Shown here: in pieces, positions 29,865 through 51,709 of the stretch
Numbering within the stretch: the stretch's first letter is position 1
How the letters are laid out: each line of letters begins with the position of its first letter
Assembly (NCBI GenBank): GCA_030650425.1
Contig: JAUSED010000003.1
Location: 263,903 to 327,902, forward strand
Origin: Candidatus Omnitrophota bacterium
GTDB lineage: Bacteria; Omnitrophota; Gorgyraeia; Gygaellales; Profunditerraquicolaceae
Direction: 5' to 3'
Length of the DNA: 64,000 bases
Position numbers and translations under genes: made by a program
Notes under the pieces: generated by a model
What the model was told of the DNA's origin: nothing
Database searches by the model: none
The model's input: only the letters and a program-made list of their open reading frames with translations

Positions 29865-29878
29865 CCTTTATTAGATTA

Positions 29879-30075
29879 ATCTTCAGGGCAGGGTGGAATT
29901 CCCGACCGGCGGTTACGCGCAAGCGCACACCAATTCATCCGATTGAATTGGGTGTTGCGCAGAAGCGCATACCAATCCTTCTTATAGGATTGGGTGTTGA
30001 GCCCGCGAGCTTCGTATATAACGGAGCAGATCTGGTGAAACTCCAGAGCCGATAGTACAGTCTAGATGGAAGGAG
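29879..30075 (+). ncRNA. FMN riboswitch (RFN element) aptamer
   Basis: Conserved RFN blocks are present: CAGGGCAGGGTGGAATTCCCGACCGGCGGT ... AGCCCGCGAGC ... GGTGAAACTCCAGAGCCGATAGTACAGTCTAGATGGAAGGA. It lies upstream of ribBA. The ORF-track ORF 29855..30055 overlaps it. Confidence 0.9.
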
Positions 30076-30090
30076 ATTAATAATGCTTAT

Positions 30091-30129: not shown

Positions 30130-31341
30130 ATGTTTAATACTATTTCAGAAATATTAGAAGACTTAAAAAACGGCAAGATGGTGATCGTGGTTGATGATGA
30201 GGACCGCGAGAACGAAGGCGATTTGGTTATGCCCGCTGTTTTTGTTAAGCCGGAGCATATAAATTTTATGGCGAAATTCGGCCGGGGCCTTATTTGCGTG
30301 CCGATGGAAGAAGAAAGGCTTGCGGCCTTAAATTTAGGGCCGATGTTAAGGGATAGGGCTGTTTATAATCAGGAAGACCCATTTGCTACTGCTTGGATGA
30401 TGTCGGTGGATGCGGCGAAAGGCATAACTACCGGTATATCCGCGGCTGACAGGGCTCGAGCAATCGAAATTTTAATCGACCCTCAATCTAAATCCGAAGA
30501 CCTTATTCGTCCCGGGCATATCTTTCCTTTAAGGGCAAGATCTGGGGGGGTATTGGTGCGCGCAGGCCATACCGAAGCAAGCATTGACCTGATGCGTTTA
30601 AGCGGGCTATATCCTGCAGGGGTAATTTGCGAGATAATGAATGACGACGGTTCAATGGCCCGCCTTCCGCAGCTATTGGAATTTTCTAAAAAGCACAAGT
30701 TGAAGATTTGCTCTATTGCTAACCTTATTGAATACCGCCGTCGGCTCGAGAAATTAATCGAAAAGGTAACAGAGACCAATCTTCCTACGGAATTTGGCGA
30801 GTATGGGCTTATTTTATACCGCGACCTGACCAATAACAAGGTGCATATTGCGTTAACCATCGGTAATTGGAAAGATGAACCGGTTCTGGCGCGTGTGCAC
30901 TCAGAGTGTTTGACTGGAGATGTTTTTGGGTCATTACGTTGCGATTGCGGAAGGCAATTGGAAAAAAGCCTGCGCATCATCGCTCAGGAGGGCAAGGGCG
31001 TTATTCTTTACATGAATCAGGAAGGCCGCGGAATAGGTTTAGTCGAGAAAATCAAGGCCTACAGTTTACAAGACCAGGGTTTGGACACGGTTGAGGCGAA
31101 TGAGGCCTTGGGGCATAAGGCAGACTTACGTGATTATGGTATAGGCGCCCAGATATTAGTGGACTTAGGGATAAAGAATATTCGTTTGCTGACCAATAAT
31201 CCGCGTAAGATTGTGGGATTGGAAGGTTATGGTTTACACGTGGTTGAGCGCGTTGCTTTGGAAATCGAGCCGAATCCGGCTAATTACCGTTATCTAAAGA
31301 CAAAGAAGGAAAAACTGGGGCATGATTTAAATTTAGATTAA
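30130..31341 (+). CDS. ribBA: bifunctional 3,4-dihydroxy-2-butanone-4-phosphate synthase / GTP cyclohydrolase II
   Basis: 403 aa. DHBP synthase N-half ([13 protein letters not shown]) and GCH-II C-half (CDCG...zinc site). Confidence 0.95.
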
Positions 31342-32244: not shown

Positions 32245-33083
32245 GCCTTTTATCTTCCAAGCGTTCAGCGGACCTGCATCTGCACACCTTATTTTCCGAT
32301 GGCACTTATACCCCTGAAGAATTAGTTTCACAGAGCCTTAAGGCCGGTTTATCGGCCATTGCCGTGGTTGACCACGATACAGTAGAAGGCGTGAGCCCGA
32401 CAATCGCGGAGGCTAAAGATCAAGCATTAGAGGTTTTGGCAGGTATAGAGTTAAGCGCGGCCTATGAGGATAAGGAAATCCATATCCTCGGTTATTTAAT
32501 CGACCATCAGAATAAAATTCTGCTTAAGAAGCTGGAATCCTTAAAAGAGAATCGTATTGAACGCGTACATAAGATGGTTGAAAAATTAAATAACCTCGGG
32601 ATAGATTTAAAACCTGAAAGCGTATTTGCTCTATCTGGAAATGGCACTGTAGGCAGGCTGCATATCGCGCGAGCCTTGGTTAAGGAAGGTTTGGTTCGTT
32701 CGCTATCCGAGGTATTTCAGAAATATATCGGCGATAATGGCCCGGCTTATGTTTTAGGATTCCGTTTTAGTCCTAAGGAGGCGATAAAGTTTATTAAGGA
32801 TTCAGGAGGGGTGCCTGTTTTGGCTCACCCTTATACCCTGCATAATGACGAGCTGATTTTAGAGTTCGTAAAATTAGGGCTGATGGGTTTGGAAGTTTAT
32901 TATCCGGAACATTCGCAAGGTATGGTTAATTTTTATCTAGAGCTGGCTAAGCAAAATAATTTATTGGTCACAGGAGGTTCGGATTGCCACGGTAAGGCTA
33001 AGCCGGAGGTACGTTTAGGCTCGATTAAAGTGCCTTATGAATTGGTTGAGAAATTAAAAGCAGCCAAAGAGGGTTTAAAATGA
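32241..33083 (+). CDS. PHP-domain phosphoesterase (TrpH/YciV/RNase AM-like)
   Basis: 280 aa. N-terminal DLHLHTLFSDG metal-binding motif of the PHP family. Sits inside the rib operon. Confidence 0.8.
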   Translation: MSLLSSKRSADLHLHTLFSDGTYTPEELVSQSLKAGLSAIAVVDHDTVEGVSPTIAEAKDQALEVLAGIELSAAYEDKEIHILGYLIDHQNKILLKKLESLKENRIERVHKMVEKLNNLGIDLKPESVFALSGNGTVGRLHIARALVKEGLVRSLSEVFQKYIGDNGPAYVLGFRFSPKEAIKFIKDSGGVPVLAHPYTLHNDELILEFVKLGLMGLEVYYPEHSQGMVNFYLELAKQNNLLVTGGSDCHGKAKPEVRLGSIKVPYELVEKLKAAKEGLK

Positions 33084-34174
33084 AAACTCACGAATATTAC
33101 ATGGATCTGGCGATGAAATTAGCCTTAAAGGGTAAAGGATTGACTTCCCCTAATCCTTTGGTAGGCAGCGTAGTAGTAAAAAACGGCAATATTATAGGTA
33201 GGGGTTTTCATGCTAAGGCAGGGCTTGCTCACGCGGAAGTTATCGCTCTGGATGAAGCAGGTGATCAGGCAGAAGGAGGCACGCTTTATGTCACTTTAGA
33301 GCCTTGCGTTCACTTTGGCCGCACCCCTCCTTGCGTGGCTCGGATTATTAAAAGTGGGGTTAAAGAAGTGATTATCGGGATGATTGACCCTAATCCTTTA
33401 AATAATGGTAAAGGAAGCGAAATTCTTAAACAAAATAAGATAAAGGTGCAAGTCGGTTTCTTGGAAGATAAATTAAAAATGATGAATGAGGCGTTCATCA
33501 AATATATTACCAAAAAGATTCCTTTCATTACGGTTAAAGTCGCTGAATCTTTGGATGGCCGGATTGCTACGCGTACAGGCGATTCTAAATGGATAACTTC
33601 GGATAAATCCCGGGGCTTTGCGCACCGTTTGCGCGGAGATTTTGACGCGATTATGGTTGGAGTAAATACTGTTCTAAGGGATAACCCTAAGTTAGACGCC
33701 TGGTTTTCTAAAAAACAACCAATAAAGATCGTTGTGGATAGCCAGTTAAGTACGCCTGAAAAAGCGAATATATTTTCCGGGGCAAAGCCGGTGATTATCG
33801 CCACGCTGGCTAGTAATTTAGGCCAAGAGACTGAAAATAGGCAGATACTTGCCAGTAAAGCGCAGATCCTGGAGATTAAAGAGAAGGCAGGCCAAATTAA
33901 TTTAAAGGATATGCTCAAAAAATTAGCGGGCATGGGGATTGCCAATATACTGGTTGAAGGCGGAGGAATGCTTATCGGTTCATTATTCGACGAGGGTTTG
34001 GTGGATAAAATAATGTTTTTTATCAGCCCTAAGATTATCGGCGGAAAAGACGCGATTAGTTCGGTTATGGGGCAGGGGGTTTCGCGCGTAGAACGGGCGC
34101 TAAAGTTAAAAGATATTACCCTAAAGCGTTTTGGCGAAGATTTTTTGATTGAAGGGTATATTAAATCTATGTAG
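33080..34174 (+). CDS. ribD: bifunctional diaminohydroxyphosphoribosylaminopyrimidine deaminase / 5-amino-6-(5-phosphoribosylamino)uracil reductase
   Basis: 364 aa. CMP/dCMP deaminase zinc motif (HAEVIAL...PCVHFGRTPPC) and a C-terminal RibD reductase domain. Confidence 0.9.
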   Translation: MKTHEYYMDLAMKLALKGKGLTSPNPLVGSVVVKNGNIIGRGFHAKAGLAHAEVIALDEAGDQAEGGTLYVTLEPCVHFGRTPPCVARIIKSGVKEVIIGMIDPNPLNNGKGSEILKQNKIKVQVGFLEDKLKMMNEAFIKYITKKIPFITVKVAESLDGRIATRTGDSKWITSDKSRGFAHRLRGDFDAIMVGVNTVLRDNPKLDAWFSKKQPIKIVVDSQLSTPEKANIFSGAKPVIIATLASNLGQETENRQILASKAQILEIKEKAGQINLKDMLKKLAGMGIANILVEGGGMLIGSLFDEGLVDKIMFFISPKIIGGKDAISSVMGQGVSRVERALKLKDITLKRFGEDFLIEGYIKSM

Positions 34175-34190
34175 GGATTGATTTATTGAT

Positions 34191-34228
34191 AAATTCGTAG
34201 CGGACATTTAAATGTCCGCTACGAATTT
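34191..34228. repeat. perfect 38-bp palindrome (19-nt arms, no spacer) in the ribD-ribE intergenic region
   Basis: AAATTCGTAGCGGACATTT|AAATGTCCGCTACGAATTT. It shares the GGACAyTT-AArTGTCC core with other palindromes in the window and swallows the upstream ATG at 34212. Confidence 0.8.
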
Positions 34229-34238
34229 TAGAAAGCTT

Positions 34239-34811
34239 ATGTTCTCAGGCATAATTGAAGAATTAGGGATAGTAAAAAGTATTTCTCGCAAGGGCAATAT
34301 CACGCTTCTTGCAATCAATGCTGAAAAAACTTTGGTCGATACCAAAATAGGCGACAGCATAGCTGTAAACGGCGCCTGCCTTACCGCCGTAGAGATAAAA
34401 AAAGATTCTTTTACCTTTGAGGTAATGCCTCAGACTTTAAAAATTACTAATCTCGGGGCCTTAAGAATCGGGGAGAAGGTTAATCTTGAACGCAGCCTTA
34501 AGGTCGGCGACAGGATATCCGGGCATTTTGTCTTAGGCCATATTGATTGCTTGGGGATTATCCGTAAAAAAGGCTACTCTGGTGGTAATCTGGCTTTTGA
34601 AATAGCCATCCCGCCTGAATTTATTAAATATTGTCTGGCTAAAGGTTCGATTGCTGTAGATGGGATCAGCCTGACCATCGCGGATAGGAAATCCAGCGCG
34701 TTTAGCGTCTATATCATCCCACATACCCTCAAAAATACAACTTTAGGTTTCAAAGGCCCGTCAGATAAAGTGAATATCGAATTTGACCTCTTGGCCAAAA
34801 GAGAAAACTAA
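34239..34811 (+). CDS. ribE: riboflavin synthase alpha subunit
   Basis: The conserved N-terminus MFSGIIEELG begins at the ATG at 34239. The ORF-track start at 34212 lies inside the palindrome. Two lumazine-binding repeats are present. Confidence 0.85.
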   Translation: MFSGIIEELGIVKSISRKGNITLLAINAEKTLVDTKIGDSIAVNGACLTAVEIKKDSFTFEVMPQTLKITNLGALRIGEKVNLERSLKVGDRISGHFVLGHIDCLGIIRKKGYSGGNLAFEIAIPPEFIKYCLAKGSIAVDGISLTIADRKSSAFSVYIIPHTLKNTTLGFKGPSDKVNIEFDLLAKREN

Positions 34812-34925: not shown

Positions 34926-34975
34926 AACCAGAAGGCTGTTAGATAAAAGGGTCAGCTTTCTGGTTTTTTTATTTT
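34926..34975 (+). terminator. rho-independent terminator of the rib operon
   Basis: AACCAGAAGGCTG...CAGCTTTCTGGTT stem followed by TTTTTTTATTTTATT. Confidence 0.7.
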
Positions 34976-35003
34976 ATTCCCGTCATTACGGGAGTTATCC
35001 ACA

Positions 35004-35033
35004 GGGTAGGGGACACTTAAGTGTCCCCTACCC
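35004..35033. repeat. perfect 30-bp palindrome GGGTAGGGGACACTT|AAGTGTCCCCTACCC immediately 5' of the giant-ORF RBS
   Basis: 15-nt arms with no spacer. It ends 1 nt before the AGGAGG RBS at 35034-35039 and belongs to the GGGGACA-core palindrome family. Confidence 0.8.
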
Positions 35034-35045
35034 AGGAGGCCATCA

Positions 35046-38000
35046 ATGCGTTCATTAAGAAAGGTTTTATCCTTAGCTTTAATTCTAAGCCTACTCTTCC
35101 AGCAAATCGGCTTTGCCCAGATTGCTAGCGAGTTAAATATCGCCGGTTATCTCTCCCGGATGAGTAGCAATCTCTCAGTAGAAAAATTCCGTCCCGCGCA
35201 CCTGCGTTACTTCTCCTATAATAGTCTAAATGACAACTTCAAGGTACTCTTAGATAAAGGAGACTCTCCTACCAGCAGGGGACATTTTCCGTCAGGGCTA
35301 TCAGGGAACTCTTTAAAGGAAAGTGTCCCCTGGGACAAGGCTAAGCTTCAATCCGAAACCCAAACCCTGCTTAGTTATTTCCTCATAGGCGTAACCCTTC
35401 CAGATTCTATGTTCTGGGTCAACCTACGCCCTGACTCCGAAGACCAGATCATTGACCAATACTTAGAGAAAACAGACGTAGGCAGGATTATGCTGGAAGC
35501 TGACCTCCAGCTCAAGAAAGACACCGCTCAAATGACCTCTCCAGCTACCCCTGAAGGAAGAGAATACTGGGATAGGCTCTATAAGAAAGCCGCCGACCTT
35601 TACGGCTATGACAATGTGACTATTCCCACCTTAACCCGTCCTTGGATTGTTCCGGGTGAGATTATAGTCAGAGAGTCTAAAGATAGCGCCTATATCTATA
35701 AAGCTACGCTAAAAGTTATGCTAGAGCAGGATTACCTAAAGAGCTCCAAACTCCAAGCCCTAAGTTCTCAGTCAGACTATTCTTTTAAAGATATTCGCTC
35801 TAAAGCTCTTAATGAATACTCTACCCAACTAATCAAAGAACTAATTATTCCTAAACTTACTAAAGAAGTCAACTCATCCAAAAGATACGCTCCCCTAAGA
35901 CAGGTCTATTACTCTTTAATCCTCTCCCGCTGGTTTAAGCAGAAATTCAGAGGACTCTCCAAACCAGCAGGGGACATTTTCCGTCAAGGCTCTCACGAAG
36001 CAACTCAAAGGAAAGTGTCCCTTGCCTTTGTTAATCTTATCGATACCAAAAACCTCACCAACCTCATCTCCAAAGACTCCTGGAGCAAAACCGACTACTT
36101 CAAGCAATACCAGAAGTCCTTCTCCTCAGGCGAATACAATATCCAAGAGTCGGTGTATACTCCCACAGGCCAAGTTATCCGCAGCTACTTTAGCGGGGGG
36201 ATACAGATGGATGGAGCAGGAAGCCCGATAAATAATCCAGTTGGTTTTACTAACCTTGCTGATAAAGGAGATAGATTCTACAAAATTTCCAGAGGTGCAA
36301 ATCTAATAGGGATGGAGGGAAATTTTCGCACTGGGATTAAACTTTCCGCCGGTTCGCTGGTTGAGCTAACTGTGGAAGAGAAGAATAAGGTTTTGGAGAT
36401 TAGCAGCATACTTACCGGGATAAATGAAGCTACGCTAACTAATTCCGCGAAAATTGGCGAGATTAGAGAAAAATTAGGGGAAGTTCCGCTTATGGGACGT
36501 GTTGATTACATTTTCTCTTATGTACCAGGAAGCCAGATGACTCAAATGAAAAAAGTTATTATCCAAACACGGATCAAAGTTTTACGAAATAGTATTGTGG
36601 CTGATGTAGACAAGCGTCTTTCCGAACTCCTAAAAGGATTCAGAGAGATTAAAGGGATATCTGGCTCACCGGTAGAATTGACACCGGAAGACAGGAGGCA
36701 GATAGAAGAGATCCTTGGGCCAATAGACGAAGTCAGAGGTATAACCGATTACAATAGAATATCACCTATTGAAGGTAGATTAAAAACAGAAATACCGATG
36801 CAAAAGATTATATTGTATGCTCAAGAGTTTTTAAGCCCAGACCATGATCCTTCGCCGCTTCCAGTTAATAGAAGAGTTATCTTAGCAATAAAGTCTATTG
36901 TACTGCTTAGAACCATTATCGGCGAGAGCATTAAAGAAAGCACGCTGGCAGTTACGAATGCCCGTTTTATCGAAGAGCTCGCTCAAGTACGAGCCAATAT
37001 GTCTAATGGTGTTGCTTTATTAGCGGGCTACAATACATTTATAAGTAGATTGCAATTGCCTGATGAGTTTGTACATTTGAGGCTTTTCTCCGATAGCATA
37101 ATAGAAACATTTAATCAGATTAAACAAATATTCGATGCAAAGTCCTCCAATTCTCCGGTTAACCCGAAAGAATTAAAGAGGCTTGAGACAGCGATTGCCA
37201 ACGTAGCTGGTTCTATTTCTCCTGAGAAAAGAATGGAAGCTCTAGAGCGGGACTTAAAGGGTTTTCCGCTAACAGTGCTCAGAGTAAAGAAAGAGGAAAT
37301 GGAATCAAACACTGGTAATCATAACAATGATGACGCATTATATTCTGCGCTGTGTAATATTATCGCTGATAAAGAAAACCCATCAAGTCCCAATAACGAT
37401 AACCTATTAGGAGACGGTTCGATTAGGCAAAAACTCGAAAGTGTAACGCCGGCAACCGCACTAGATCGTGATGCAATGATTGCAAAAATCGAAGAATTAT
37501 CGAAAATCTCTTCTTTCTCTCTTGAAGAATATAAGAGAAGTGTGGCGAGGAATCCGGCAATAGATAAACGCAGGCGTCTTATACAAATAGAATTGTTAGG
37601 TGCGGCTATCGAAAAGAAAAAATCCAAAAATAATAAACCTGAAGCTTCCTCCGGTTCGCCGGTAGATAGGATTACAAAAGAGGAAGCCGAGGCTTGGCTT
37701 AGTCATAATATTAAGATACCAGAAAAAGTTGACTTGAACACTGGAATAGGCAATCATCCTAAGGAGTTTTCTCTTAATAAAAAAAGAATTAAAGAAGCCA
37801 TATATCCATTCTTGATGAGTTTACCAAGATCTGTTGAGCCGGAGAAGTTTGAATTTACATTTGAATTATCGAGTGTTTGGGTTTTAACGATTAGGGTACG
37901 CTATGGCGGTGAGACCAAAACAAATCCGCTAGTATTTCGTTTCTATTATCCCTATATTGAAGCTAATAAGTTTGACTCGGAAAAGTTAGCTGATGTAGAA

Positions 38001-41000
38001 AACACAATCATAGAAGAGATAAAAAGGGATTTTGTTTATAGGATTTTTGGACATTTCTACGGTGAACCATGGAAGCCTATTGAGGAATTTATCCAGATTT
38101 CTTGGAACAAGACAAATGATAACAGCAATTTGTATTTAGGAAAACAGTATCAAGGAGGCTTGAAGCCCGACTCATTTTTAGCTAAAGGCTCTCATGTTAA
38201 AAAGTATGGAAACGATACGCCAGTCGTTGATTTTATGGAGCTCTTGGATGCTTGGTTACAAGAAGGAGAGGCGGTATTTAGTGTTCCTGAAGCTACGCCT
38301 GAAGAGACAAGAAAGCAGGCAGAGCAAAATTTAGCATTTTTTAAGCTATACTTTAATAGAGATCTATCTGGTTCGCCGGATCAAAAATTCAACAGCTCGC
38401 CGATAGAAAAAAGCGATTCAAAACCAATAATATTGATTGTTGATGATGACGAAAATATTAGATGGATGATTAAAAATGAATTAAGGAAACAAGGTTTTGA
38501 GCCGGATCAATTATTGGAGGCTGAAAGCGGAGAAGAAGCCTTGAAAATATTAAATAAACAAAGAATAGACCTTGTTTTAAGTGACTATAACATGCCGTCC
38601 GGGATAAATGGGGGAGAGCTTTATGTGAAGATGTCAAAAAGCGCTGCCCTAAACAAAATCCCTTTTGTGATGTTAACCGGTGATCCAGATTCTGTAAGGA
38701 AAGAGCTTAAGCTTCCTGAGGGTGTACAGATACTTAACAAGTTCGCATCATTCGCGGAAGTTATTTACCCTGTTATGTTATCATTAATAAATGACAAGGA
38801 AAGAAAACCAGCCGTCGGCTCGCTGACTGAAACTTCTAAAGAAAATAATCCAGTCAACTCGCCTATTTTTAAAACGAAATTTTCAGCTAATGAGTTTACT
38901 AGTAAGGAAGGATTAATACAAGACCTGAAAAAGCTCGACGGGTTTCTTAAGGGAAAGGAAGGAAATGGCGAGCTTGTTTTTACGCTCAAATGGCTTGAAT
39001 GGATTAGTTTGGATAGAAGTTGGCGTGAAGGATTAATTGATTTACCAGATACTTCGGATTTCATCCTTAACTTCGCTAAATTTATTCATTTGTATTTATC
39101 AGAAACAGGGATAGGGAATGTTTCTCTTAAAGATAAACTAAATATAGCTAACAAACTTTGGGTGCGCCATTTAGAATTTATTGATAAATCCGGACAAATT
39201 GTACCGCCTCACCAAGCATTTTATTCTTATCGGTTTGCCAGCGAGATTAAAACACAAGGCGAAGTTGCTCTGCGTTTTTCCGTAGCTAAATCTGCGGTAG
39301 AGAAGGTGCGTTGGGCAGTTGAAAGTATCCCTGCAATGAGGGTGCGGTTGGATACTCTGGCGTTAGATACGGGATTATCTGTTGATGAGGTTATCGAAGC
39401 GCTAAAGACTATTAACGAAAAACGGAATGATTATGAGCTTCAAGGCGATATTCTTATTATCCCGAAAGTAACAAATGATTACTTGGATTTTAGGCCTTTT
39501 AGTGAAGAAGCGCGCCGATTAGGAGAGGCCTTACAGAATTTCGGTCTTCCAGAAGATGTAACGGTGATTATGCAATCATCAGGGTTGACTCTTGAAGGAT
39601 TGAAGTTTGCAGTGCAAGAGGCTAATGCTGTCAAAATATATAGGCCAACACTTGAGGTGCGCGATAGTAAGCTTACCTTTTTTACATACGATAGTAAAGG
39701 CAATCCGGTATATCCTAGTGCAGAGATGCCGTTAATAGTTCAGAGGAATACCAGCGATTCTGCTCTAGCCAGCTCGGCGATGCAGGTGAAGGATGCAGGG
39801 TTACCGGGTTTGCTTGGAGAAGATTTTAGCAAAGCGGATGTTAAAGTAATGCCGTTTGTGCTTAGTCGAGATGAAATTCCTGGTAAAGTTTTTAGTATTA
39901 TAGAAGCAACGTTAAAAAACCTTGAGAAGGATTTTCGTGGAATTTTGATTGAAAGACGAAACGGCCTGCTTTACGCTATAGACAAAGAATCCCAAGGAAC
40001 TTTACCAATTGATAAATCTAAGTCCATTACAACTCTGAAAGAAATTCTAGAAGCGGATTATTCTGAAAATCAACAGTTTACTTTTGTATGGATAAGTACT
40101 TCTGCTTATTCTGCGTTGGAGATAAGGCCTAAATATCCGTTGGCCGCCGGTTCGCCGACAACACTTGAGGAAGCGGTAAAATTTTTGCATTTTTTACAAG
40201 TGAATTGGATGCGTTTTCAGATTAGAGATGAGGAATCTTTTAAATATTTTGAGGAGCATGATAATAAGTTAGATAATGTAGATAATAGAATAGTCTATTC
40301 TGTGCCTCCAAATAAAAATGTAGCTGGGGGTTTTAATTTCGTAGTTAAAGATAGCGTAGAGCCGGAACAATTATTGGAGCGAGTTTTAAATTTCATAAAC
40401 GGAAGAAAAATCGTATGGAGCAATGAAAAAGAGCAGAAGGAAATCGCAGAAGGAATTACCACTAAGCTTAGTTCCTTAAGGCAAGCCAGCTCGGCGATGC
40501 AACAGGTTGAACCGGTTAACGTGAGAATGGTTGAAGCTGAAGAAGGGATAATAATACGAGGGGAGGTTGTAGTTCCGGCTGAAGTGAAAAACGGTCAATC
40601 AATAATGAGAATAAGGGTAGCAGGTGAAAATAGCGTGATTGTACTATTTAGTCTTCAGTTTTATAAGGGTACTGCCTTTGTGAGCGAAATCCTAGGAAAA
40701 CGAACATTTCTTTCGGGAACACCAAAGATAGAGTCACATGCCATAAAGTTTGATACAATTAAAGACATCTTGACAGTAGAGACACGAGATCCATATTGGA
40801 ATGGATATGAATATAAAGCAGATGTTATTTCATCCAGCTCGGCGGTGGAATTAAAAGAGGGGAATAAGTACTCTTTTTATGGGAAATACGGTTTATTGCG
40901 AGGTTGGGAGATAAAAATAAATAAACTTTTTGAAGACGGTAGTATTGAAGTAACGTTGGTTGAGCCCGAAAGCAAAGCAGGGAAGGCGTCCATAAAGAAC

Positions 41001-41525
41001 GTAGTTTTCAGGAATAAAAATGATCTGCAGGGATTTGTGCGAGAGTTGAGTGCGTGTGAACTTGGCACTTATCAGGTTGAGCCGTTACCAGTAACAGTAT
41101 TTACAGATTTTTTTAGGAATGCTGAAGATTTTGCGCGACGTTCCTCTGTTAGTTCTGCGATAGATGAGACTCAGAAGACTCCCGGCGGTATCGACTTCCG
41201 CGTTCTGCCTATGACTATCCAGCCAATGGGAAGCTTTACCGGTTTAAACTTTAAGCTGCCACAGCTAACGCAAAGAGAGTTGGCCAAGATGAATATTGAT
41301 TTAGAGATACAGCAGATTCAGAATATGGCTTCCTCCGGTATCCTTCCTTCTGGCCGGCGAATCAAAGAATTAATCGCCGCTTGTGTGCAAAAGAAGGAGA
41401 TTACTGCCCGCGCGGATAATCTCTTGCTCTGCCTTATAGATATCTGTAAGCTGGAAGAAGAGAACGCCTATGATACCGAGCCGGAGATGAAAGAGGCATT
41501 GGTAATAGTAGATTCAGTTAGCTAA
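35046..41525 (+). CDS. giant secreted/envelope protein of unknown function (2159 aa) with N-terminal signal peptide and an embedded CheY-like receiver (REC) domain
   Basis: Uninterrupted 6480-nt ORF, far beyond chance in AT-rich DNA. Strong AGGAGG RBS. N-terminus MRSLRKVLSLALILSLLFQQIGFA-QIA looks like a cleavable signal peptide. Residues ~1126-1245 (KPIILIVDDDENIRWMI...DLVLSDYNMP...VMLTGDPD) match a response-regulator receiver domain. No other domain recognised. Followed by a strong terminator. Confidence 0.8.
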   Translation: MRSLRKVLSLALILSLLFQQIGFAQIASELNIAGYLSRMSSNLSVEKFRPAHLRYFSYNSLNDNFKVLLDKGDSPTSRGHFPSGLSGNSLKESVPWDKAKLQSETQTLLSYFLIGVTLPDSMFWVNLRPDSEDQIIDQYLEKTDVGRIMLEADLQLKKDTAQMTSPATPEGREYWDRLYKKAADLYGYDNVTIPTLTRPWIVPGEIIVRESKDSAYIYKATLKVMLEQDYLKSSKLQALSSQSDYSFKDIRSKALNEYSTQLIKELIIPKLTKEVNSSKRYAPLRQVYYSLILSRWFKQKFRGLSKPAGDIFRQGSHEATQRKVSLAFVNLIDTKNLTNLISKDSWSKTDYFKQYQKSFSSGEYNIQESVYTPTGQVIRSYFSGGIQMDGAGSPINNPVGFTNLADKGDRFYKISRGANLIGMEGNFRTGIKLSAGSLVELTVEEKNKVLEISSILTGINEATLTNSAKIGEIREKLGEVPLMGRVDYIFSYVPGSQMTQMKKVIIQTRIKVLRNSIVADVDKRLSELLKGFREIKGISGSPVELTPEDRRQIEEILGPIDEVRGITDYNRISPIEGRLKTEIPMQKIILYAQEFLSPDHDPSPLPVNRRVILAIKSIVLLRTIIGESIKESTLAVTNARFIEELAQVRANMSNGVALLAGYNTFISRLQLPDEFVHLRLFSDSIIETFNQIKQIFDAKSSNSPVNPKELKRLETAIANVAGSISPEKRMEALERDLKGFPLTVLRVKKEEMESNTGNHNNDDALYSALCNIIADKENPSSPNNDNLLGDGSIRQKLESVTPATALDRDAMIAKIEELSKISSFSLEEYKRSVARNPAIDKRRRLIQIELLGAAIEKKKSKNNKPEASSGSPVDRITKEEAEAWLSHNIKIPEKVDLNTGIGNHPKEFSLNKKRIKEAIYPFLMSLPRSVEPEKFEFTFELSSVWVLTIRVRYGGETKTNPLVFRFYYPYIEANKFDSEKLADVENTIIEEIKRDFVYRIFGHFYGEPWKPIEEFIQISWNKTNDNSNLYLGKQYQGGLKPDSFLAKGSHVKKYGNDTPVVDFMELLDAWLQEGEAVFSVPEATPEETRKQAEQNLAFFKLYFNRDLSGSPDQKFNSSPIEKSDSKPIILIVDDDENIRWMIKNELRKQGFEPDQLLEAESGEEALKILNKQRIDLVLSDYNMPSGINGGELYVKMSKSAALNKIPFVMLTGDPDSVRKELKLPEGVQILNKFASFAEVIYPVMLSLINDKERKPAVGSLTETSKENNPVNSPIFKTKFSANEFTSKEGLIQDLKKLDGFLKGKEGNGELVFTLKWLEWISLDRSWREGLIDLPDTSDFILNFAKFIHLYLSETGIGNVSLKDKLNIANKLWVRHLEFIDKSGQIVPPHQAFYSYRFASEIKTQGEVALRFSVAKSAVEKVRWAVESIPAMRVRLDTLALDTGLSVDEVIEALKTINEKRNDYELQGDILIIPKVTNDYLDFRPFSEEARRLGEALQNFGLPEDVTVIMQSSGLTLEGLKFAVQEANAVKIYRPTLEVRDSKLTFFTYDSKGNPVYPSAEMPLIVQRNTSDSALASSAMQVKDAGLPGLLGEDFSKADVKVMPFVLSRDEIPGKVFSIIEATLKNLEKDFRGILIERRNGLLYAIDKESQGTLPIDKSKSITTLKEILEADYSENQQFTFVWISTSAYSALEIRPKYPLAAGSPTTLEEAVKFLHFLQVNWMRFQIRDEESFKYFEEHDNKLDNVDNRIVYSVPPNKNVAGGFNFVVKDSVEPEQLLERVLNFINGRKIVWSNEKEQKEIAEGITTKLSSLRQASSAMQQVEPVNVRMVEAEEGIIIRGEVVVPAEVKNGQSIMRIRVAGENSVIVLFSLQFYKGTAFVSEILGKRTFLSGTPKIESHAIKFDTIKDILTVETRDPYWNGYEYKADVISSSSAVELKEGNKYSFYGKYGLLRGWEIKINKLFEDGSIEVTLVEPESKAGKASIKNVVFRNKNDLQGFVRELSACELGTYQVEPLPVTVFTDFFRNAEDFARRSSVSSAIDETQKTPGGIDFRVLPMTIQPMGSFTGLNFKLPQLTQRELAKMNIDLEIQQIQNMASSGILPSGRRIKELIAACVQKKEITARADNLLLCLIDICKLEEENAYDTEPEMKEALVIVDSVS
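35271..35330. repeat. ~60-nt hairpin element copy A inside the giant ORF (GGGGACATTTTCC - 27-nt loop - GGAAAGTGTCCCC)
   Basis: ACCAGCAGGGGACATTTTCCGTCAGGGC...AAAGGAAAGTGTCCCC. A near-identical copy lies 692 nt downstream in a different reading frame. Confidence 0.7.
35963..36021. repeat. ~60-nt hairpin element copy B inside the giant ORF
   Basis: ACCAGCAGGGGACATTTTCCGTCAAGGC...AAAGGAAAGTGTCCC. The first 24 nt match copy A except for one substitution, but it is read in a shifted frame (PAGDIFRQG vs SRGHFPSG). Confidence 0.7.
38421..38790 (+). other. receiver (REC/CheY-like) domain segment within the giant ORF
   Basis: KPIILIVDDDENIRWMIKNELRKQGFEP...EEALKIL...RIDLVLSDYNMPSGINGGELYVKM...IPFVMLTGDPDSVRKEL. 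Acidic pocket DDD, phospho-acceptor Asp (LVLSD) and conserved T/K positions are present. Confidence 0.7.
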
Positions 41526-41528
41526 AGG

Positions 41529-41567
41529 AAAAGGTGACAGTCACGCACTTCGTGACTGTCACCTTTT
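41529..41567 (+). terminator. strong hairpin terminator downstream of the giant ORF
   Basis: AAAAGGTGACAGTCACG-cactt-CGTGACTGTCACCTTTT: a 17-bp perfect stem flanked by A4/T4, so possibly bidirectional. Confidence 0.75.
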
Positions 41568-41583
41568 CTAGTGAGTTAAAAGA

Positions 41584-41652: not shown

Positions 41653-41729
41653 CGGGGCGTGGCTCAGTTTGGTAGAGCGCTTGGTTCGGGACCAAGAGGT
41701 CGACAGTTCAAGTCTGTCCGCCCCGACCA
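41653..41729 (+). tRNA. tRNA-Pro (anticodon CGG)
   Basis: Cloverleaf with acceptor CGGGGCG/CGCCCCG, D-arm GCTCAGTTTGGTAGAGC, anticodon stem CTTGG/CCAAG with loop TTCGGGA (CGG), T-arm GGTTCAAGTCT and an encoded CCA. Confidence 0.9.
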
Positions 41730-50333: not shown

Positions 50334-50720
50334 ATGTCCAGACAAGAAAGAATAGCTGAGGCGATTAGGCAAGAGGCGAGCCTGATTATTCACGATAAAC
50401 TCAAAGACCCGCGTTTAGGGTTTACCACTATAACTAGGGTTGAGGTTACGCCGGACTTAAGATACGCTAAGATTTTCTTCAGCGTATTGGGGAATGAGGA
50501 ATCCTACAAAAAGACCAAGGATGCCCTGGATTCCGCTTTAGGGTTTGTGCGTAAGTTGGTTGCCCGGCGGCTGAATTTAAGATTCGCTCCCGAAATCGCT
50601 TTTTATGATGATAGGTCCACGGAGTATAGCGTGCGTATAGAAGAGGTTCTCAATGAAATAAAGGAGCTTGATGGAGAGAAAAAGCCTAAAAAAGGTCGTC
50701 GCGGAAATAAAAAAGCATAA
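50334..50720 (+). CDS. rbfA: ribosome-binding factor A
   Basis: 128 aa. RQERIAEAIRQEASLII...TITRVEVTPDLRYAKIF, with a basic C-terminal tail. Confidence 0.9.
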   Translation: MSRQERIAEAIRQEASLIIHDKLKDPRLGFTTITRVEVTPDLRYAKIFFSVLGNEESYKKTKDALDSALGFVRKLVARRLNLRFAPEIAFYDDRSTEYSVRIEEVLNEIKELDGEKKPKKGRRGNKKA

Positions 50721-51651
50721 GCGTTTTTTGATCAGCGTTCATACCAGTCCCGAGGGAGATGCTTTAGGGTCGGAGTTGGCCATTTATTATTTACTGAGAA
50801 AGTTAGGGAAGCAGGCAGTCATTATCAATGAAGATCCTTTGCCGCAAGAATATAGTTTTTTCCCGGGTAAGGAGAATTTAAGAATTTATAAACCGGGTTT
50901 AAAAGAGATTGATTTTGATTGTATGGTTATTCTTGATTGCACGGATTTAAGCCGGATCGGAGAGGTGCAATCATTAAATAAGGGGAATAAGCCGGTTATT
51001 AACATCGATCACCATATAAGCAATAAGCAATTCGGGACGGTCAATTTGGTCGAACCCTATGCATCTTCGGCTTCTGAGCTGGTTTTTAATCTTTATAAAG
51101 AAATACGCGTGCCTTTTGATGAGGATTCGGCTATACTCTTGTATACCGGTATGCTTACGGATACCGGCTCATTCCGTTATTCCAATACTTCAAGCTCGAC
51201 CCATAAAGCCGCGGCAGAATTATTACGTTTTAATATTAATGCCAATCAGGTTTATAAAAATATTTACGAAAATATTCCTTTTAGTGATATTCAGATATTA
51301 ACTAAAACGCTAGCGCATATTCATAGAGAGAGCGCCGGAAGCATCGCGTGGGTGGAGGCGCGGGCAAAATTATTAAGGCATAAGAAATTATCTTTCGATC
51401 TGACCGATCATATCTTGGGTTTTCTACGGGCGATAAAAGGTACTCAGGTAGCGGTGTTATTCAAAGAAAATCTTGGCGTAAGAAACGAGATCCGGGTAAA
51501 CTTGAGGTCAACGGGTTTAGCCGATGTGAATAAAGTCGCCTTAGCCTTCGGCGGGGGAGGTCATAAAACCGCTTCCGGGTGCACTGTTAGCGGTAAGCTC
51601 GCGGATGTACGCAGAAAAGTCATCGCTAAAATCCGGGAGGAATTAGGATAG
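50671..51651 (+). CDS. nrnA: bifunctional oligoribonuclease / pAp phosphatase NrnA (DHH-DHHA1)
   Basis: DHH motif INIDHHISN and DHHA1 GGGGHKTASG. ATG at 50671 after an AAGGAG RBS; overlaps the rbfA tail by ~50 nt in another frame. The track's 50668 is an in-frame TTG. Confidence 0.85.
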   Translation: MERKSLKKVVAEIKKHKRFLISVHTSPEGDALGSELAIYYLLRKLGKQAVIINEDPLPQEYSFFPGKENLRIYKPGLKEIDFDCMVILDCTDLSRIGEVQSLNKGNKPVINIDHHISNKQFGTVNLVEPYASSASELVFNLYKEIRVPFDEDSAILLYTGMLTDTGSFRYSNTSSSTHKAAAELLRFNINANQVYKNIYENIPFSDIQILTKTLAHIHRESAGSIAWVEARAKLLRHKKLSFDLTDHILGFLRAIKGTQVAVLFKENLGVRNEIRVNLRSTGLADVNKVALAFGGGGHKTASGCTVSGKLADVRRKVIAKIREELG

Positions 51652-51709
51652 CTTAAGGGGACACTTTCCTACACGTGTTTACTACTTGTTGGAAAGTGTC
51701 CCCTTAAGC
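51651..51709. repeat. GGGGACA-family palindromic element (19-nt perfect arms, 21-nt loop) between nrnA and ribF
   Basis: GCTTAAGGGGACACTTTCC-tacacgtgtttactacttgtt-GGAAAGTGTCCCCTTAAGC. It starts at the nrnA stop codon and has no U-tract. Confidence 0.8.

What the first reader, a model, noticed from the sequence alone, without database searches (positions are those of the whole stretch)
35271..36021. Two copies of a ~60-nt hairpin element inside the giant ORF, conserved at the nucleotide level but translated in different reading frames
Copy A (35271-35330) and copy B (35963-36021) both begin ACCAGCAGGGGACATTTTCCGTCA(G/A)GGC and end AAAGGAAAGTGTCCC(C/T). Each folds into a 13-nt-arm hairpin with a 27-nt loop.

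Because of 1-nt offsets and indels they encode different peptides: ...SRGHFPSGLSGNSLKESVPW... versus ...PAGDIFRQGSHEATQRKVSL.... Conservation is therefore at the DNA/RNA level, not the protein level.

This resembles ORF-preserving insertions of small palindromic mobile elements (as with Rickettsia RPEs). Alternatively it could be an RNA structure used for regulation, such as ribosome pausing, mRNA processing or recombination hot spots. The same arms (GGGGACAyTTTCC / GGAAAGTGTCCCC) recur in intergenic palindromes elsewhere in the window.
Basis: seen in the sequence. Interest (0 to 1): 0.7.

Follow-up and report, generated by a model that had tools for sequence, protein, structure and literature searches.

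The report
REP-like hairpin repeats inside giant gene
Two copies of a small palindromic repeat that is scattered through Omnitrophota genomes, and appears to be serviced by a REP-associated tyrosine transposase, sit in-frame in two floppy loops of a giant protein gene and are read in different frames, so this is "selfish DNA inside a gene" seen in a new phylum, not a new kind of system.

Summary
Copy A (35276-35332) and copy B (35967-36025) lie inside ORF 35046-41525. They share 13-nt arms, GGGGACATTTTCC / GGAAAGTGTCCC(C), and a 27-nt loop. They are translated in different frames.

Most homologues of the protein's N-terminal domain lack both segments. In an AlphaFold model both segments fall in low-confidence coil.

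The same hairpin is a dispersed, mostly intergenic repeat:
- a third copy in the window (51651-51709);
- about 20 copies in one Omnitrophota MAG;
- 154 distinct copies across the public genome and metagenome collections searched.

No target-site duplications flank the copies, and there is no Rfam match.

Orthologous in-ORF copies keep their arms (76/78 nt; 19/21 four-fold synonymous sites) while the loops drift. The constraint is therefore on nucleotides, not on the peptide.

An Omnitrophota family of 161-aa Y1/HUH transposases has NCBIfam "REP-associated tyrosine transposase" as its best match. In 5 of 5 loci examined, the gene is bracketed by hairpins that carry the same 10-12-nt arm core.

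Best reading: this is a REP/RAYT-type repeat family, and two of its members are tolerated as in-frame passengers in surface loops. It is a new member of a known kind.

The parts
35276..35332 (+). Copy A. A 57-nt REP-like hairpin element: 15-nt arms CAGGGGACATTTTCC / GGAAAGTGTCCCCTG around a 27-nt loop. It lies in-frame in the giant ORF and encodes ..SRGHFPSGLSGNSLKESVPW..
   Evidence: (pair I12) give sequence and fold. It is absent from most homologues: the modal length of site A is 18 aa in 50 homologues, against 37 aa here. The net insertion relative to L165 is 57 nt. The peptide falls in coil with pLDDT below 50 at residues 78-88. Its loop is 24/27 identical to that of an intergenic copy in L111.
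35967..36025 (+). Copy B. The same element: arms GGGGACATTTTCC / GGAAAGTGTCCC(T) and a 27-nt loop that is 67% identical to the loop of copy A. It is read one frame over and encodes ..PAGDIFRQGSHEATQRKVSL..
   Evidence: Searches give sequence, fold and translation. The modal length of site B is 12 aa in 71 homologues, against 32 aa here. Orthologous copies exist in L028, L167 and P0022 in the same frame. The peptide falls in coil with pLDDT below 50 at residues 317-322.
51651..51709 (.). Copy C. An intergenic member of the family with perfect arms. The palindrome is extended to 26-nt arms (GCTTAAGGGGACACTTTCC...). It starts at the last base of the stop codon of a DHH-family gene (50668-51651) and ends 17 nt before the ribF start (51727); the 13-nt core arms lie 6 and 24 nt from them.
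   Evidence: -40.3 kcal/mol, z = -9.1; pair I1.
35004..35033 (.). A loop-less relative: the perfect palindrome GGGTAGGGGACACTT/AAGTGTCCCCTACCC. It shares the GGGGACAC/GTGTCCCC outer arm and sits directly upstream of the AGGAGG Shine-Dalgarno sequence and the ATG of the giant ORF.
   Evidence: (pair I8).
35046..41525 (+). The host gene, a 2159-aa ORF. It has a signal peptide, an N-terminal domain of about 390 aa conserved across Omnitrophota, a receiver domain (aa 1129-1216), and a conserved C-terminal GGIDF...ALVIVDS domain.

Best explanation
The two segments are members of a REP-type family, that is, short dispersed palindromic repeats. The family lives mainly in intergenic spacers of Omnitrophota genomes.

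Most likely (inferred) the repeats are propagated as single-stranded DNA hairpins by a REP-associated tyrosine (Y1/HUH) transposase, or RAYT, encoded elsewhere in the genome.

Two copies landed in, or were converted into, two variable surface-exposed loops of the N-terminal domain of the giant protein. They survive there for four reasons:
- the net insertion is a multiple of three (57 and 60 nt);
- the arms contain no stop codon in any of the six frames;
- the loops happen to be open in the frame used;
- the extra ~20 residues sit in disordered coil.

Because the insertion points differ in codon phase, the same DNA is translated into unrelated peptides.

The arms stay nearly invariant while the loops and the surrounding gene drift. 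Either the hairpin remains a substrate or recognition site for the family's machinery, or it is homogenised by gene conversion with other copies. This last step is also inferred.

Shown here: the anatomy, the insertion status, the dispersal, the nucleotide-level constraint, and the existence of a RAYT family flanked by hairpins with the same arm core.

Inferred: that this RAYT mobilises these hairpins, and that the window's own genome encodes one.
For: **1. Insertions in variable loops.**
- Alignment of 17 and then 120 homologues shows most lack both segments.
- P0002, whose contig like the window has a Lum_binding (riboflavin synthase) gene just upstream, lacks the copy A insert and the copy B arm peptides.
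- The AF2 model puts both peptides in coil with pLDDT below 50.

**2. A dispersed family.**
- 44 genome loci were found, with about 20 copies in MAG STB_56. That MAG has loop subfamilies of near-identical 25-nt loops, nested copies and clustered copies.
- 118 metagenome stretches were found.
- After de-duplication there are 154 copies, mostly between genes.
- None was found in viral contigs.

**3. Nucleotide-level constraint.**
- Arms are 76/78 identical between orthologous in-ORF copies. The flanking coding sequence is 70-75% identical and the loops 43/81.
- Four-fold synonymous sites are 19/21 identical in the arms against 140/311 in the background.
- The arms are read in three frames.
- Compensatory arm variants exist: 16 double changes keep Watson-Crick pairing and 5 break it.

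**4. Family exchange.** The loop of copy A is 24/27 identical to an intergenic copy in another genome (L111). It is only 11/27 identical to the orthologous copy in L041.

**5. The RAYT link.**
- L141 has a Y1_Tnp ORF next to a family hairpin.
- This transposase has 805 homologues, and every named one is from Omnitrophota.
- The best NCBIfam match is REP-associated tyrosine transposase, at 75-87 bits against a cut-off of 80.
- HUH (HIH) and Y..NP motifs are present.
- The gene keeps the same neighbours across 13 and 18 contigs from different samples, so it behaves as single-copy and not as an active IS.
- In 5/5 loci the gene is bracketed by CAGACGCTTTCC..GGAAAGTGTCCC upstream and GGGACACTTTCC..GGAAAACGTCTG downstream. 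These share the arm core.

**6. Strand polarity.** The T:G variant of arm position 8 lies on the gene-sense, positive-GC-skew strand in 35 of 37 assignable copies. This fits a strand-specific single-stranded DNA mechanism.
Against: - No RAYT gene lies in the 64-kb window, and the source genome could not be retrieved. The link to a transposase is therefore by family, not by genome.
- The hairpins flanking the RAYT differ from the dispersed ones in the outer 3-4 nt (CAGAC versus GGGGAC).
- The canonical GTAG tetranucleotide 5' of REPs is absent: 0 of 246 arms.
- Identical 13-nt arms also occur in Gemmataceae, Planctomycetia, Myxococcales and Syntrophales-type contigs. A lineage-specific RAYT-REP pair does not predict this.
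- The strand polarity could equally reflect selection on the transcript.
- Many copies sit a median of 26 nt upstream of the next start codon. One subset carries a conserved 60-nt upstream module. Both hint at a host-level role.
- No empty/filled polymorphism between near-identical strains was seen, so mobility itself is inferred.
Confidence: 0.68

Rival explanations
1. The hairpin is primarily a host cis-acting RNA element, for example an mRNA stabiliser, a processing site or a ribosome-pausing site. On this view it is kept by selection on the transcript, including inside the giant ORF, and any mobility is secondary.
For: - The G.U-compatible variant lies on the sense strand in 35 of 37 copies.
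- Copies sit in short spacers within operons, typically 10-30 nt before the next start codon. Thirty of 56 are within 30 nt.
- The arms are conserved far above the synonymous background.
- Compensatory changes keep the pairing.
- A subset shares a 60-nt upstream module in front of unrelated housekeeping genes.
Against: - Once arm position 8 is masked, sense and antisense strands fold equally well: 31 versus 35, p = 0.79.
- Perfect-arm copies in STB_56 occur in both orientations relative to genes, 5:3.
- No Rfam family matches.
- There is no U-tract, terminator or sigma-70 promoter signature.
- Loops are not conserved between orthologues.
- Nested and clustered copies and within-genome loop subfamilies look like proliferation.
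- This reading is not exclusive of the main one. E. coli REPs are both mobile-derived and mRNA-stabilising (own knowledge).
Confidence: 0.17
2. It is a classical MITE: a deletion derivative of a DDE-transposase insertion sequence, mobilised by cut-and-paste through its 13-nt terminal inverted repeats.
For: The element has terminal inverted repeats, small size, many copies and subfamilies with conserved internal sequence.
Against: - No target-site duplications: direct repeats of 2-6 nt flanking the element occur at chance level (13/123, 0/123, 1/123, 0, 0).
- No parent IS with these ends turned up among about 2,100 ORFs in 1 Mb of flanking sequence.
- The only transposase found next to family hairpins is a Y1/HUH enzyme, which makes no duplications (own knowledge of IS200/IS605).
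Confidence: 0.05
3. The in-ORF hairpins are recombination signals. They would promote exchange or shuffling between the many paralogous genes that share this N-terminal domain, or between sites A and B.
For: - The N-domain is fused to many different C-terminal parts across hundreds of genes.
- Copy A and copy B in the window share an extended left flank.
- In contig L167 the sequence after the right arm of copy B continues for 113/115 nt as the sequence that follows copy A.
Against: - L167 is a 1.1-kb metagenome contig, so the junction may be an assembly chimera.
- Most paralogues have no hairpin at either site.
- No second example was found.
Confidence: 0.05
4. It is a local tandem or segmental duplication, or a true protein repeat within the gene.
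For: There are two similar 60-nt segments 690 nt apart in one gene.
Against: - The copies are in different reading frames and give unrelated peptides.
- The same element is found intergenically in the window and in more than 100 other contigs.
Confidence: 0.01

Closest known systems
REP / REPIN elements with their RAYT (REP-associated tyrosine transposase), e.g. E. coli and Pseudomonas
   Same: - Short imperfect palindromes, tens to hundreds of copies, mostly in intergenic spacers inside operons.
- No target-site duplications.
- Often clustered or nested.
- A single-copy Y1/HUH transposase of about 160 aa whose gene is flanked by hairpins of the same family.
   Different: - No GTAG 5' of the palindrome.
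- The stem-loop is larger: 13-15-bp arms and a variable 10-33-nt loop.
- The RAYT-flanking hairpins are hybrid variants (CAGACG... on one arm).
- Identical arms occur in several phyla.
- Some copies are in-frame inside genes.
- The host phylum is Omnitrophota, for which my literature searches found no description.
Rickettsia palindromic elements (RPEs)
   Same: Palindromic repeats inserted in-frame in protein-coding genes at positions compatible with the fold. The host proteins remain intact (PMC10969869).
   Different: RPEs are about 100-150 bp and encode a conserved peptide, so they are always read in one frame. Here the element is 57 nt and is read in three different frames, giving unrelated peptides. 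In-ORF copies are a small minority of the family.
IS200/IS605 family (IS608 TnpA)
   Same: A Y1 HUH transposase gene bracketed by subterminal hairpins. The mechanism is strand-specific and acts on single-stranded DNA, which would explain a fixed strand polarity and the lack of duplications (own knowledge).
   Different: - The NCBIfam IS200 model scores far lower than the RAYT model: 30 bits against 87.
- The gene sits at one conserved chromosomal location across samples and is not multi-copy.
- No tnpB is adjacent.
Bacterial MITEs (Correia, ERIC, Chunjie, Nezha)
   Same: Small non-autonomous repeats with inverted ends. They are sometimes intragenic and in-frame, and are co-transcribed with neighbouring genes (PMC10969869).
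   Different: No target-site duplication and no DDE-type parent element. The element is much shorter.

Membership tests
REP/RAYT system | Short imperfect palindrome present in many dispersed, mostly extragenic copies | tested here: met
   There are 3 copies in the window, about 20 in MAG STB_56, and 154 distinct copies overall. Most lie between genes.
REP/RAYT system | A single-copy Y1/HUH transposase (RAYT) whose gene is flanked by the repeats | tested here: met
   This was met in related Omnitrophota contigs, not in the window's own genome.
- PF01797 matches at E = 1.6e-14.
- NF047646 scores 75-87 bits against a cut-off of 80.
- The genomic location is conserved across samples.
- Hairpins with the arm core lie on both sides of the gene in 5/5 loci.
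REP/RAYT system | RAYT present in the same genome as these particular copies | not testable with these tools
   The window has no Y1 ORF. The source genome is not in the collections.
REP/RAYT system | Conserved GTAG tetranucleotide at the 5' foot of the palindrome | tested here: not met
   GTAG is found 5' of an arm in 0 of 246 cases. It opens the loop in 20 of 246, and GTA+G precedes a minority of arms, including the relative at 35004-33.
REP/RAYT system | REPIN doublets (two inverted REPs forming a long hairpin) | tested here: inconclusive
   STB_56 copies are often nested as outer arm, 13 nt, inner hairpin, 12 nt, outer arm. The window copies are single.
REP/RAYT system | The RAYT binds and cleaves the single-stranded repeat | not testable with these tools
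   This needs biochemistry.
MITE | Terminal inverted repeats | tested here: met
   The arms are 13-14 nt, A-GGGGACAYTTTCC / GGAAARTGTCCCC-T.
MITE | Target-site duplication flanking each copy | tested here: not met
   Direct repeats of 2-6 nt occur at chance level in 123 copies.
Rickettsia palindromic elements | In-frame insertion in ORFs with a conserved element-encoded peptide (fixed frame) | tested here: not met
   In-frame insertion is met. However, three frames are used and the peptides differ: RGHFP..ESVP, GDIF..KVS and GTFS..ESVP.
Intrinsic terminator | GC-rich hairpin followed by a U-tract | tested here: not met
   No T-run follows the stems, and the scan finds no terminator at these sites.
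Any Rfam RNA family | Match to a curated covariance model | tested here: not met
   There is nothing at gathering score. At E <= 10 only chance-level miRNA and sRNA hits appear.

The most novel reading that the evidence does not exclude
The 13-nt arm is not just the footprint of one lineage's RAYT. It would instead be a recognition hairpin conserved across phyla (Omnitrophota, Planctomycetota, and Myxococcota/Syntrophales-type contigs). It would be kept under purifying selection even inside coding sequence, because the single-stranded or transcribed hairpin has a host function. Candidate functions are a 5'-proximal mRNA element in front of housekeeping genes, or a recombination or pausing signal within the N-domain gene family. 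On this reading the in-ORF copies are functional nucleic-acid signals embedded in a protein gene, not passengers.
Probability: 0.12. Interest if true: 0.8.

Novelty: new member of a known kind. Interest (0 to 1): 0.5.

Why it matters
- It extends the REP/RAYT type of repeat system to Omnitrophota. This is an uncultivated phylum of ultra-small bacteria for which I found no description of such repeats.
- It gives a clean example of "selfish DNA inside genes" in which the same element is translated in three frames. That shows directly that protein loops can absorb arbitrary repeat-encoded peptides.
- The two variable loops of the Omnitrophota N-domain, and the variable loop of GDP-mannose dehydratase, turn out to be recurrent landing pads for several unrelated repeat families. 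This matters for gene calling, for alignment and phylogeny of these proteins, and for metagenome assembly, since contigs break or go chimeric at these repeats.
- The arm sequence is a simple marker for tracing the family and for testing RAYT specificity.

Tried and rejected
**Searches that found nothing useful**
- Rfam, at gathering score over the whole window and 12 loci, and at E <= 10 over 34950-36100: nothing relevant.
- Viral contigs: no copy.
- Sigma-70 promoter and intrinsic-terminator scans at the hairpins and at the upstream module: nothing.
- Literature search for Omnitrophota palindromic repeats: nothing relevant.
- PDB fold search of the N-domain model: no significant match.

**Ideas tested and dropped**
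- Pseudoknot between the 60-nt upstream module and the loop: considered, but pairing is not maintained across copies, and RNAalifold predicts only the main stem with no covariation.
- General excess of G.U pairs on the sense strand: none once arm position 8 is masked.
- Target-site duplications: none.
- Guilt-by-association clustering of all ORFs near the hairpins: only common domains recur (receiver, GMD, aminotransferase) and no transposase. The RAYT was found only later, by phmmer with remembered IS200 and RayT sequences as bait, and was then confirmed with Pfam and NCBIfam.
- Separating replication polarity from transcription polarity using GC skew: confounded, with 35 versus 12.

**Retrieval failures**
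- Source genome: the giant protein is not on record.
- P0022, a close relative on a 338-kb contig, is not on record.
- P0002 has no DNA file.

**Set aside**
- L036, a GC-rich tandem array in an Odoribacteraceae-labelled contig, is probably an unrelated chance match.
Full report
**1. Observation**

- Copy A is CAGGGGACATTTTCC, a 27-nt loop, then GGAAAGTGTCCCCTG at 35276-35332 (pair I12).
- Copy B is GGGGACATTTTCC, a 27-nt loop, then GGAAAGTGTCCC at 35970-36021. Its stem extends to 35967-36025.

Both lie in the 2159-aa ORF 35046..41525 on the + strand. The left arm starts at codon position 2 in copy A and at codon position 1 in copy B. The same DNA is therefore read as ...SRGHFPSGLSGNSLKESVPW... 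and as ...PAGDIFRQGSHEATQRKVSL....

The hairpins are stable: -28.9 and -29.6 kcal/mol, with z = -3.0 and -5.4. The arm motif occurs 6 times in the window against 0.13 expected by chance.

A third full copy with perfect arms, extended to 26 nt, is intergenic at 51651-51709 (-40.3 kcal/mol, z = -9.1). A loop-less relative, GGGTAGGGGACACTT/AAGTGTCCCCTACCC, sits at 35004-35033 just before the Shine-Dalgarno sequence of the giant ORF.

**2. Host gene and insertion status**

The first ~390 residues of the ORF are a domain found in hundreds of proteins. All the named ones come from Omnitrophota, and the C-terminal parts vary widely. The ORF also has a receiver domain and a conserved C-terminal GGIDF...VIVDS domain.

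In alignments, copies A and B fall at two length-variable sites.
- Site A has a modal length of 18 aa (50 homologues) against 37 aa here.
- Site B has a modal length of 12 aa (71 homologues) against 32 aa here.

Relative to an insert-free homologue (L165), the net gain is 57 nt at site A. That is exactly 15 + 27 + 15 nt of the element. The gain at site B is 60 nt.

P0002, whose contig like the window has a riboflavin-synthase (Lum_binding) gene just upstream, lacks the copy A insert and the copy B arm peptides.

An AlphaFold2 model of the domain (mean pLDDT 73) places both peptides in coil, with pLDDT below 50 at residues 78-88 and 317-322. These lie between confidently predicted helices. The inserts therefore occupy floppy loops.

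**3. A dispersed family**

The pattern GGGGACAYTTTCC-N5-35-GGAAARTGTCCC was searched in three collections.
- Species-representative genomes: 44 loci.
- JGI metagenomes: 118 stretches.
- Viral contigs: none.

Most genome hits are Omnitrophota MAGs. One MAG, STB_56, has about 20 copies. These fall into loop subfamilies with near-identical 25-nt loops, occur in both orientations, and are often nested or clustered.

After de-duplication there are 154 copies. The great majority are in short spacers between genes.

True in-ORF copies are rare. The cases are:
- the window's copies A and B;
- their orthologues in L041/L124, L157, L167, L028 and P0022;
- a 2-oxoacid:ferredoxin oxidoreductase gene (L093);
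- a GDP-mannose 4,6-dehydratase gene (L007/L017, P0121, P0122), where the arms are read in the third frame as GTFS...ESVP.

The palindrome effectively ends one base outside the 13-mer (A...T). No target-site duplications flank the copies.

**4. Constraint is on nucleotides**

Between orthologous in-ORF copies in proteins only 69-72% identical:
- arms are 76/78 identical;
- loops are 43/81 identical;
- the flanking, well-conserved coding sequence is 70-75% identical.

At four-fold degenerate sites the arms are 19/21 identical against 140/311 in the background.

Divergent copies show compensatory double changes that keep pairing: 16 keep Watson-Crick pairing and 5 break it. Examples are L085 6016, L088 2577 and L067 1215.

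The loop of copy A is 24/27 identical to an intergenic copy in another genome (L111, between gmd and a fucose-synthase-like gene). It is only 11/27 identical to the orthologous copy in L041. This points to exchange with the wider family, by re-insertion or gene conversion, and not to simple vertical descent.

**5. Polarity**

The only variation the search pattern allowed was at arm position 8. Nearly all copies are either C:G or T:G there. A T:A pair was seen only in two near-identical high-GC contigs (L050, L161).

The T:G form, which is G.U in RNA and a tolerated T.G in single-stranded DNA, lies on the gene-sense strand in 35 of 37 assignable copies. This corresponds to 24 of 26 loop groups, with p about 1e-8. 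One of the two exceptions is probably an ORF-calling artefact.

T-type loops also share a polarity: they start with G(T), contain CTAT and end in AAA.

When position 8 is masked, sense and antisense strands fold equally well. The signal is therefore an orientation bias of a subfamily, not a general excess of G.U pairs.

All genes in the window are on the + strand, which also has strongly positive GC skew. The polarity cannot be assigned to transcription or to replication with these data.

**6. The likely engine**

Clustering all ORFs near the hairpins found no recurrent transposase. A phmmer bait search then picked out one ORF in L141. That ORF is a Y1_Tnp protein (PF01797, E = 1.6e-14) lying next to a family hairpin.

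Its properties are as follows.
- It has 805 homologues at E <= 1e-10. Nearly all are 159-163 aa, and every named one is from Omnitrophota.
- The best NCBIfam model is "REP-associated tyrosine transposase", at 75-87 bits against a cut-off of 80. The IS200 model scores at most 30 bits.
- The HUH motif (HIH) and the Y..NP motif are present.
- The gene keeps the same neighbours in 13 and 18 contigs from different samples. It behaves as a resident single-copy gene, not as an active insertion sequence.
- In all five loci examined it is bracketed by hairpins. One, CAGACGCTTTCC...GGAAAGTGTCCC, lies about 70-120 nt before the start. The other, GGGACACTTTCC...GGAAAACGTCTG, lies 10-40 nt after the stop. 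They share the 10-12-nt core of the dispersed arms.

This is the defining architecture of REP/RAYT systems (own knowledge of that literature). Y1/HUH enzymes act on single-stranded hairpins in a strand-specific way and make no target duplications. That fits sections 3 and 5.

**7. What it most likely is**

This is a REP-type repeat family of Omnitrophota. Two members sit as in-frame passengers in disordered loops of the giant protein. The different frames simply reflect the codon phase of the two insertion points.

The arms contain no stop codon in any of the six frames. A 27-nt loop is open in a given frame about two times in three. In-frame survivors in tolerant loops are therefore expected occasionally.

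Still inferred, not shown:
- that the RAYT mobilises these particular hairpins;
- that the window's genome has a RAYT;
- why the arms stay so constant inside the ORF (substrate maintenance, gene conversion or a host function).

**8. Rivals**

- *Host RNA function.* This could be mRNA stabilisation, processing or pausing. It is compatible with the sense-strand polarity and with the position a median of 26 nt before the next start codon. A subset also carries a conserved 60-nt upstream module. The reading lacks independent support and is not exclusive of the REP reading.
- *Classical MITE.* Disfavoured because duplications are absent.
- *Recombination-signal role.* Hinted at only by one short contig, L167. 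There the sequence after the right arm of copy B continues as the sequence after copy A, 113/115 nt. This may be a chimera.
- *Local duplication or protein repeat.* Refuted.

**9. Comparison with known systems and novelty**

The element works like REP/RAYT. It meets the features I could test, with two qualifications. It lacks the 5' GTAG. The same-genome RAYT link is untestable here.

It resembles Rickettsia RPEs in being an ORF-compatible palindrome. It differs from them in size and in having no fixed frame or conserved peptide (PMC10969869).

One thing is unexplained. Identical 13-nt arms occur in Gemmataceae (three contigs, 61-64% GC), in Planctomycetia, in a Myxococcales-labelled contig, and in Syntrophales-type GMD genes. 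There is also a high-GC subfamily with extended arms, GAAAAT-GGGGACACTTTCC-ATTTCC.

I rate this a new member of a known kind, of moderate interest.

Noticed in passing
window 34191-34228: A perfect 22-nt-arm palindrome, AAATTCGTAGCGGACATTTAAATGTCCGCTACGAATTT, lies between ribD and ribE. It carries GTAG next to a GGACATTT/AAATGTCC core that resembles the family arm. The ribE start codon (34212) lies inside its right half.
   Followed up: no
window 41528-41568: A perfect 18-bp hairpin, GAAAAGGTGACAGTCACG...CGTGACTGTCACCTTTTC, follows the stop codon of the giant ORF directly and precedes a tRNA gene (41653-41726). It is unrelated in sequence to the family.
   Followed up: no
window 29875-30081; whole window: An FMN riboswitch (107 bits) lies upstream of ORF 30130-31341 and, further downstream, the ribD and ribE genes (33080-34811). 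Every long non-overlapping ORF of the 64-kb window is on the + strand; the only minus-strand ORFs of 150 aa or more are seven shorter ones, six of them inside plus-strand genes. That strand has GC skew of +0.11 to +0.19 throughout.
   Followed up: partly
window 35046-36215 and 41150-41525: The giant protein belongs to a very large Omnitrophota-specific family. Members share a conserved N-terminal domain of about 390 aa with a signal peptide, and a conserved C-terminal domain of about 120 aa (GGIDF...ALVIVDS). These bracket highly variable middles such as HEAT repeats, kinase-like parts and methyltransferases. The N-domain model has no significant PDB fold match.
   Followed up: partly
L167 941-1095 (contig of P0003, 80% identical homologue): After the right arm of copy B, the contig continues for 113/115 nt with the sequence that normally follows copy A. 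This is either a real A/B recombination or duplication, or an assembly chimera at the repeat.
   Followed up: partly
L122 5156-5290, L085, L100, L104, L129, L134, L026, L063, L087, L067, L014, L158, L009, L088 2520-2630: A subset of T-type hairpins is preceded by a conserved ~60-nt module, ..GCnnTTGCAGTTGAACCAAAAGACTATAGACGACGGTAAAGACGAGAG. The composite of about 125 nt sits 10-30 nt before the start codons of unrelated housekeeping genes, apparently enolase-, Clp-ATPase- and phosphomutase-like judging by their first residues (not family-searched). It is not in Rfam, it lacks a sigma-70 signature, and it is absent from the window.
   Followed up: partly
P0121-P0240 (GDP-mannose 4,6-dehydratases related to L007): The loop before the ..VDPRYFRP motif varies from 12 to 72 aa. 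It carries many different peptides that look repeat-derived (SPSPLRGEGWGEGD, SPSGRGAGGEGA, SLRGGEADAAIQ...VIASEARQSS). It appears to be a general landing pad for palindromic repeats across Proteobacteria-type lineages.
   Followed up: partly
L166 2240-2275, L028 site A, L046 site B; P0035, P0039, P0018: Other repeat families occupy the same two loops of the N-domain in other lineages.
- A 30-nt palindrome, AAGGGRTTGTCCYCGAAGGGKACTGTCCCT (peptide KGLSPKGTVP), is found at site A in some genes and at site B in another.
- Tandem SPGHQVT and GLSPQ units occur.
- VIASPEGAKQS-type peptides occur.
- P0019 carries perfect palindromes in its signal peptide and at a third variable site.
   Followed up: partly
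L052, L060, L062, L075, L080, L089-L091, L096, L097, L099, L101, L108, L113, L117, L118, L120, L133, L137, L143, L149; L015, L018, L039: In contigs of 61-72% GC, including a Gemmataceae MAG, the same 13-nt arms are present. In many of these contigs they are embedded in a longer, AT-rich conserved palindrome, GAAAAT-GGGGACACTTTCC-ATTTCC...GGAAAT-GGAAAGTGTCCCC-ATTTTC. The Gemmataceae copies (L015, L018, L039) instead have short 11-nt loops and copy-specific complementary flanks. The cross-phylum identity of the arms is unexplained.
   Followed up: no
L036 4000-4260: A GC-rich tandem array of ~31-nt units, ..GGGAGACTTTCCCCCCGGCGGGAAACCGTCCCCGCGCGCCA.., follows a gene in an Odoribacteraceae-labelled contig. 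It matched the search pattern but looks like a different repeat.
   Followed up: no
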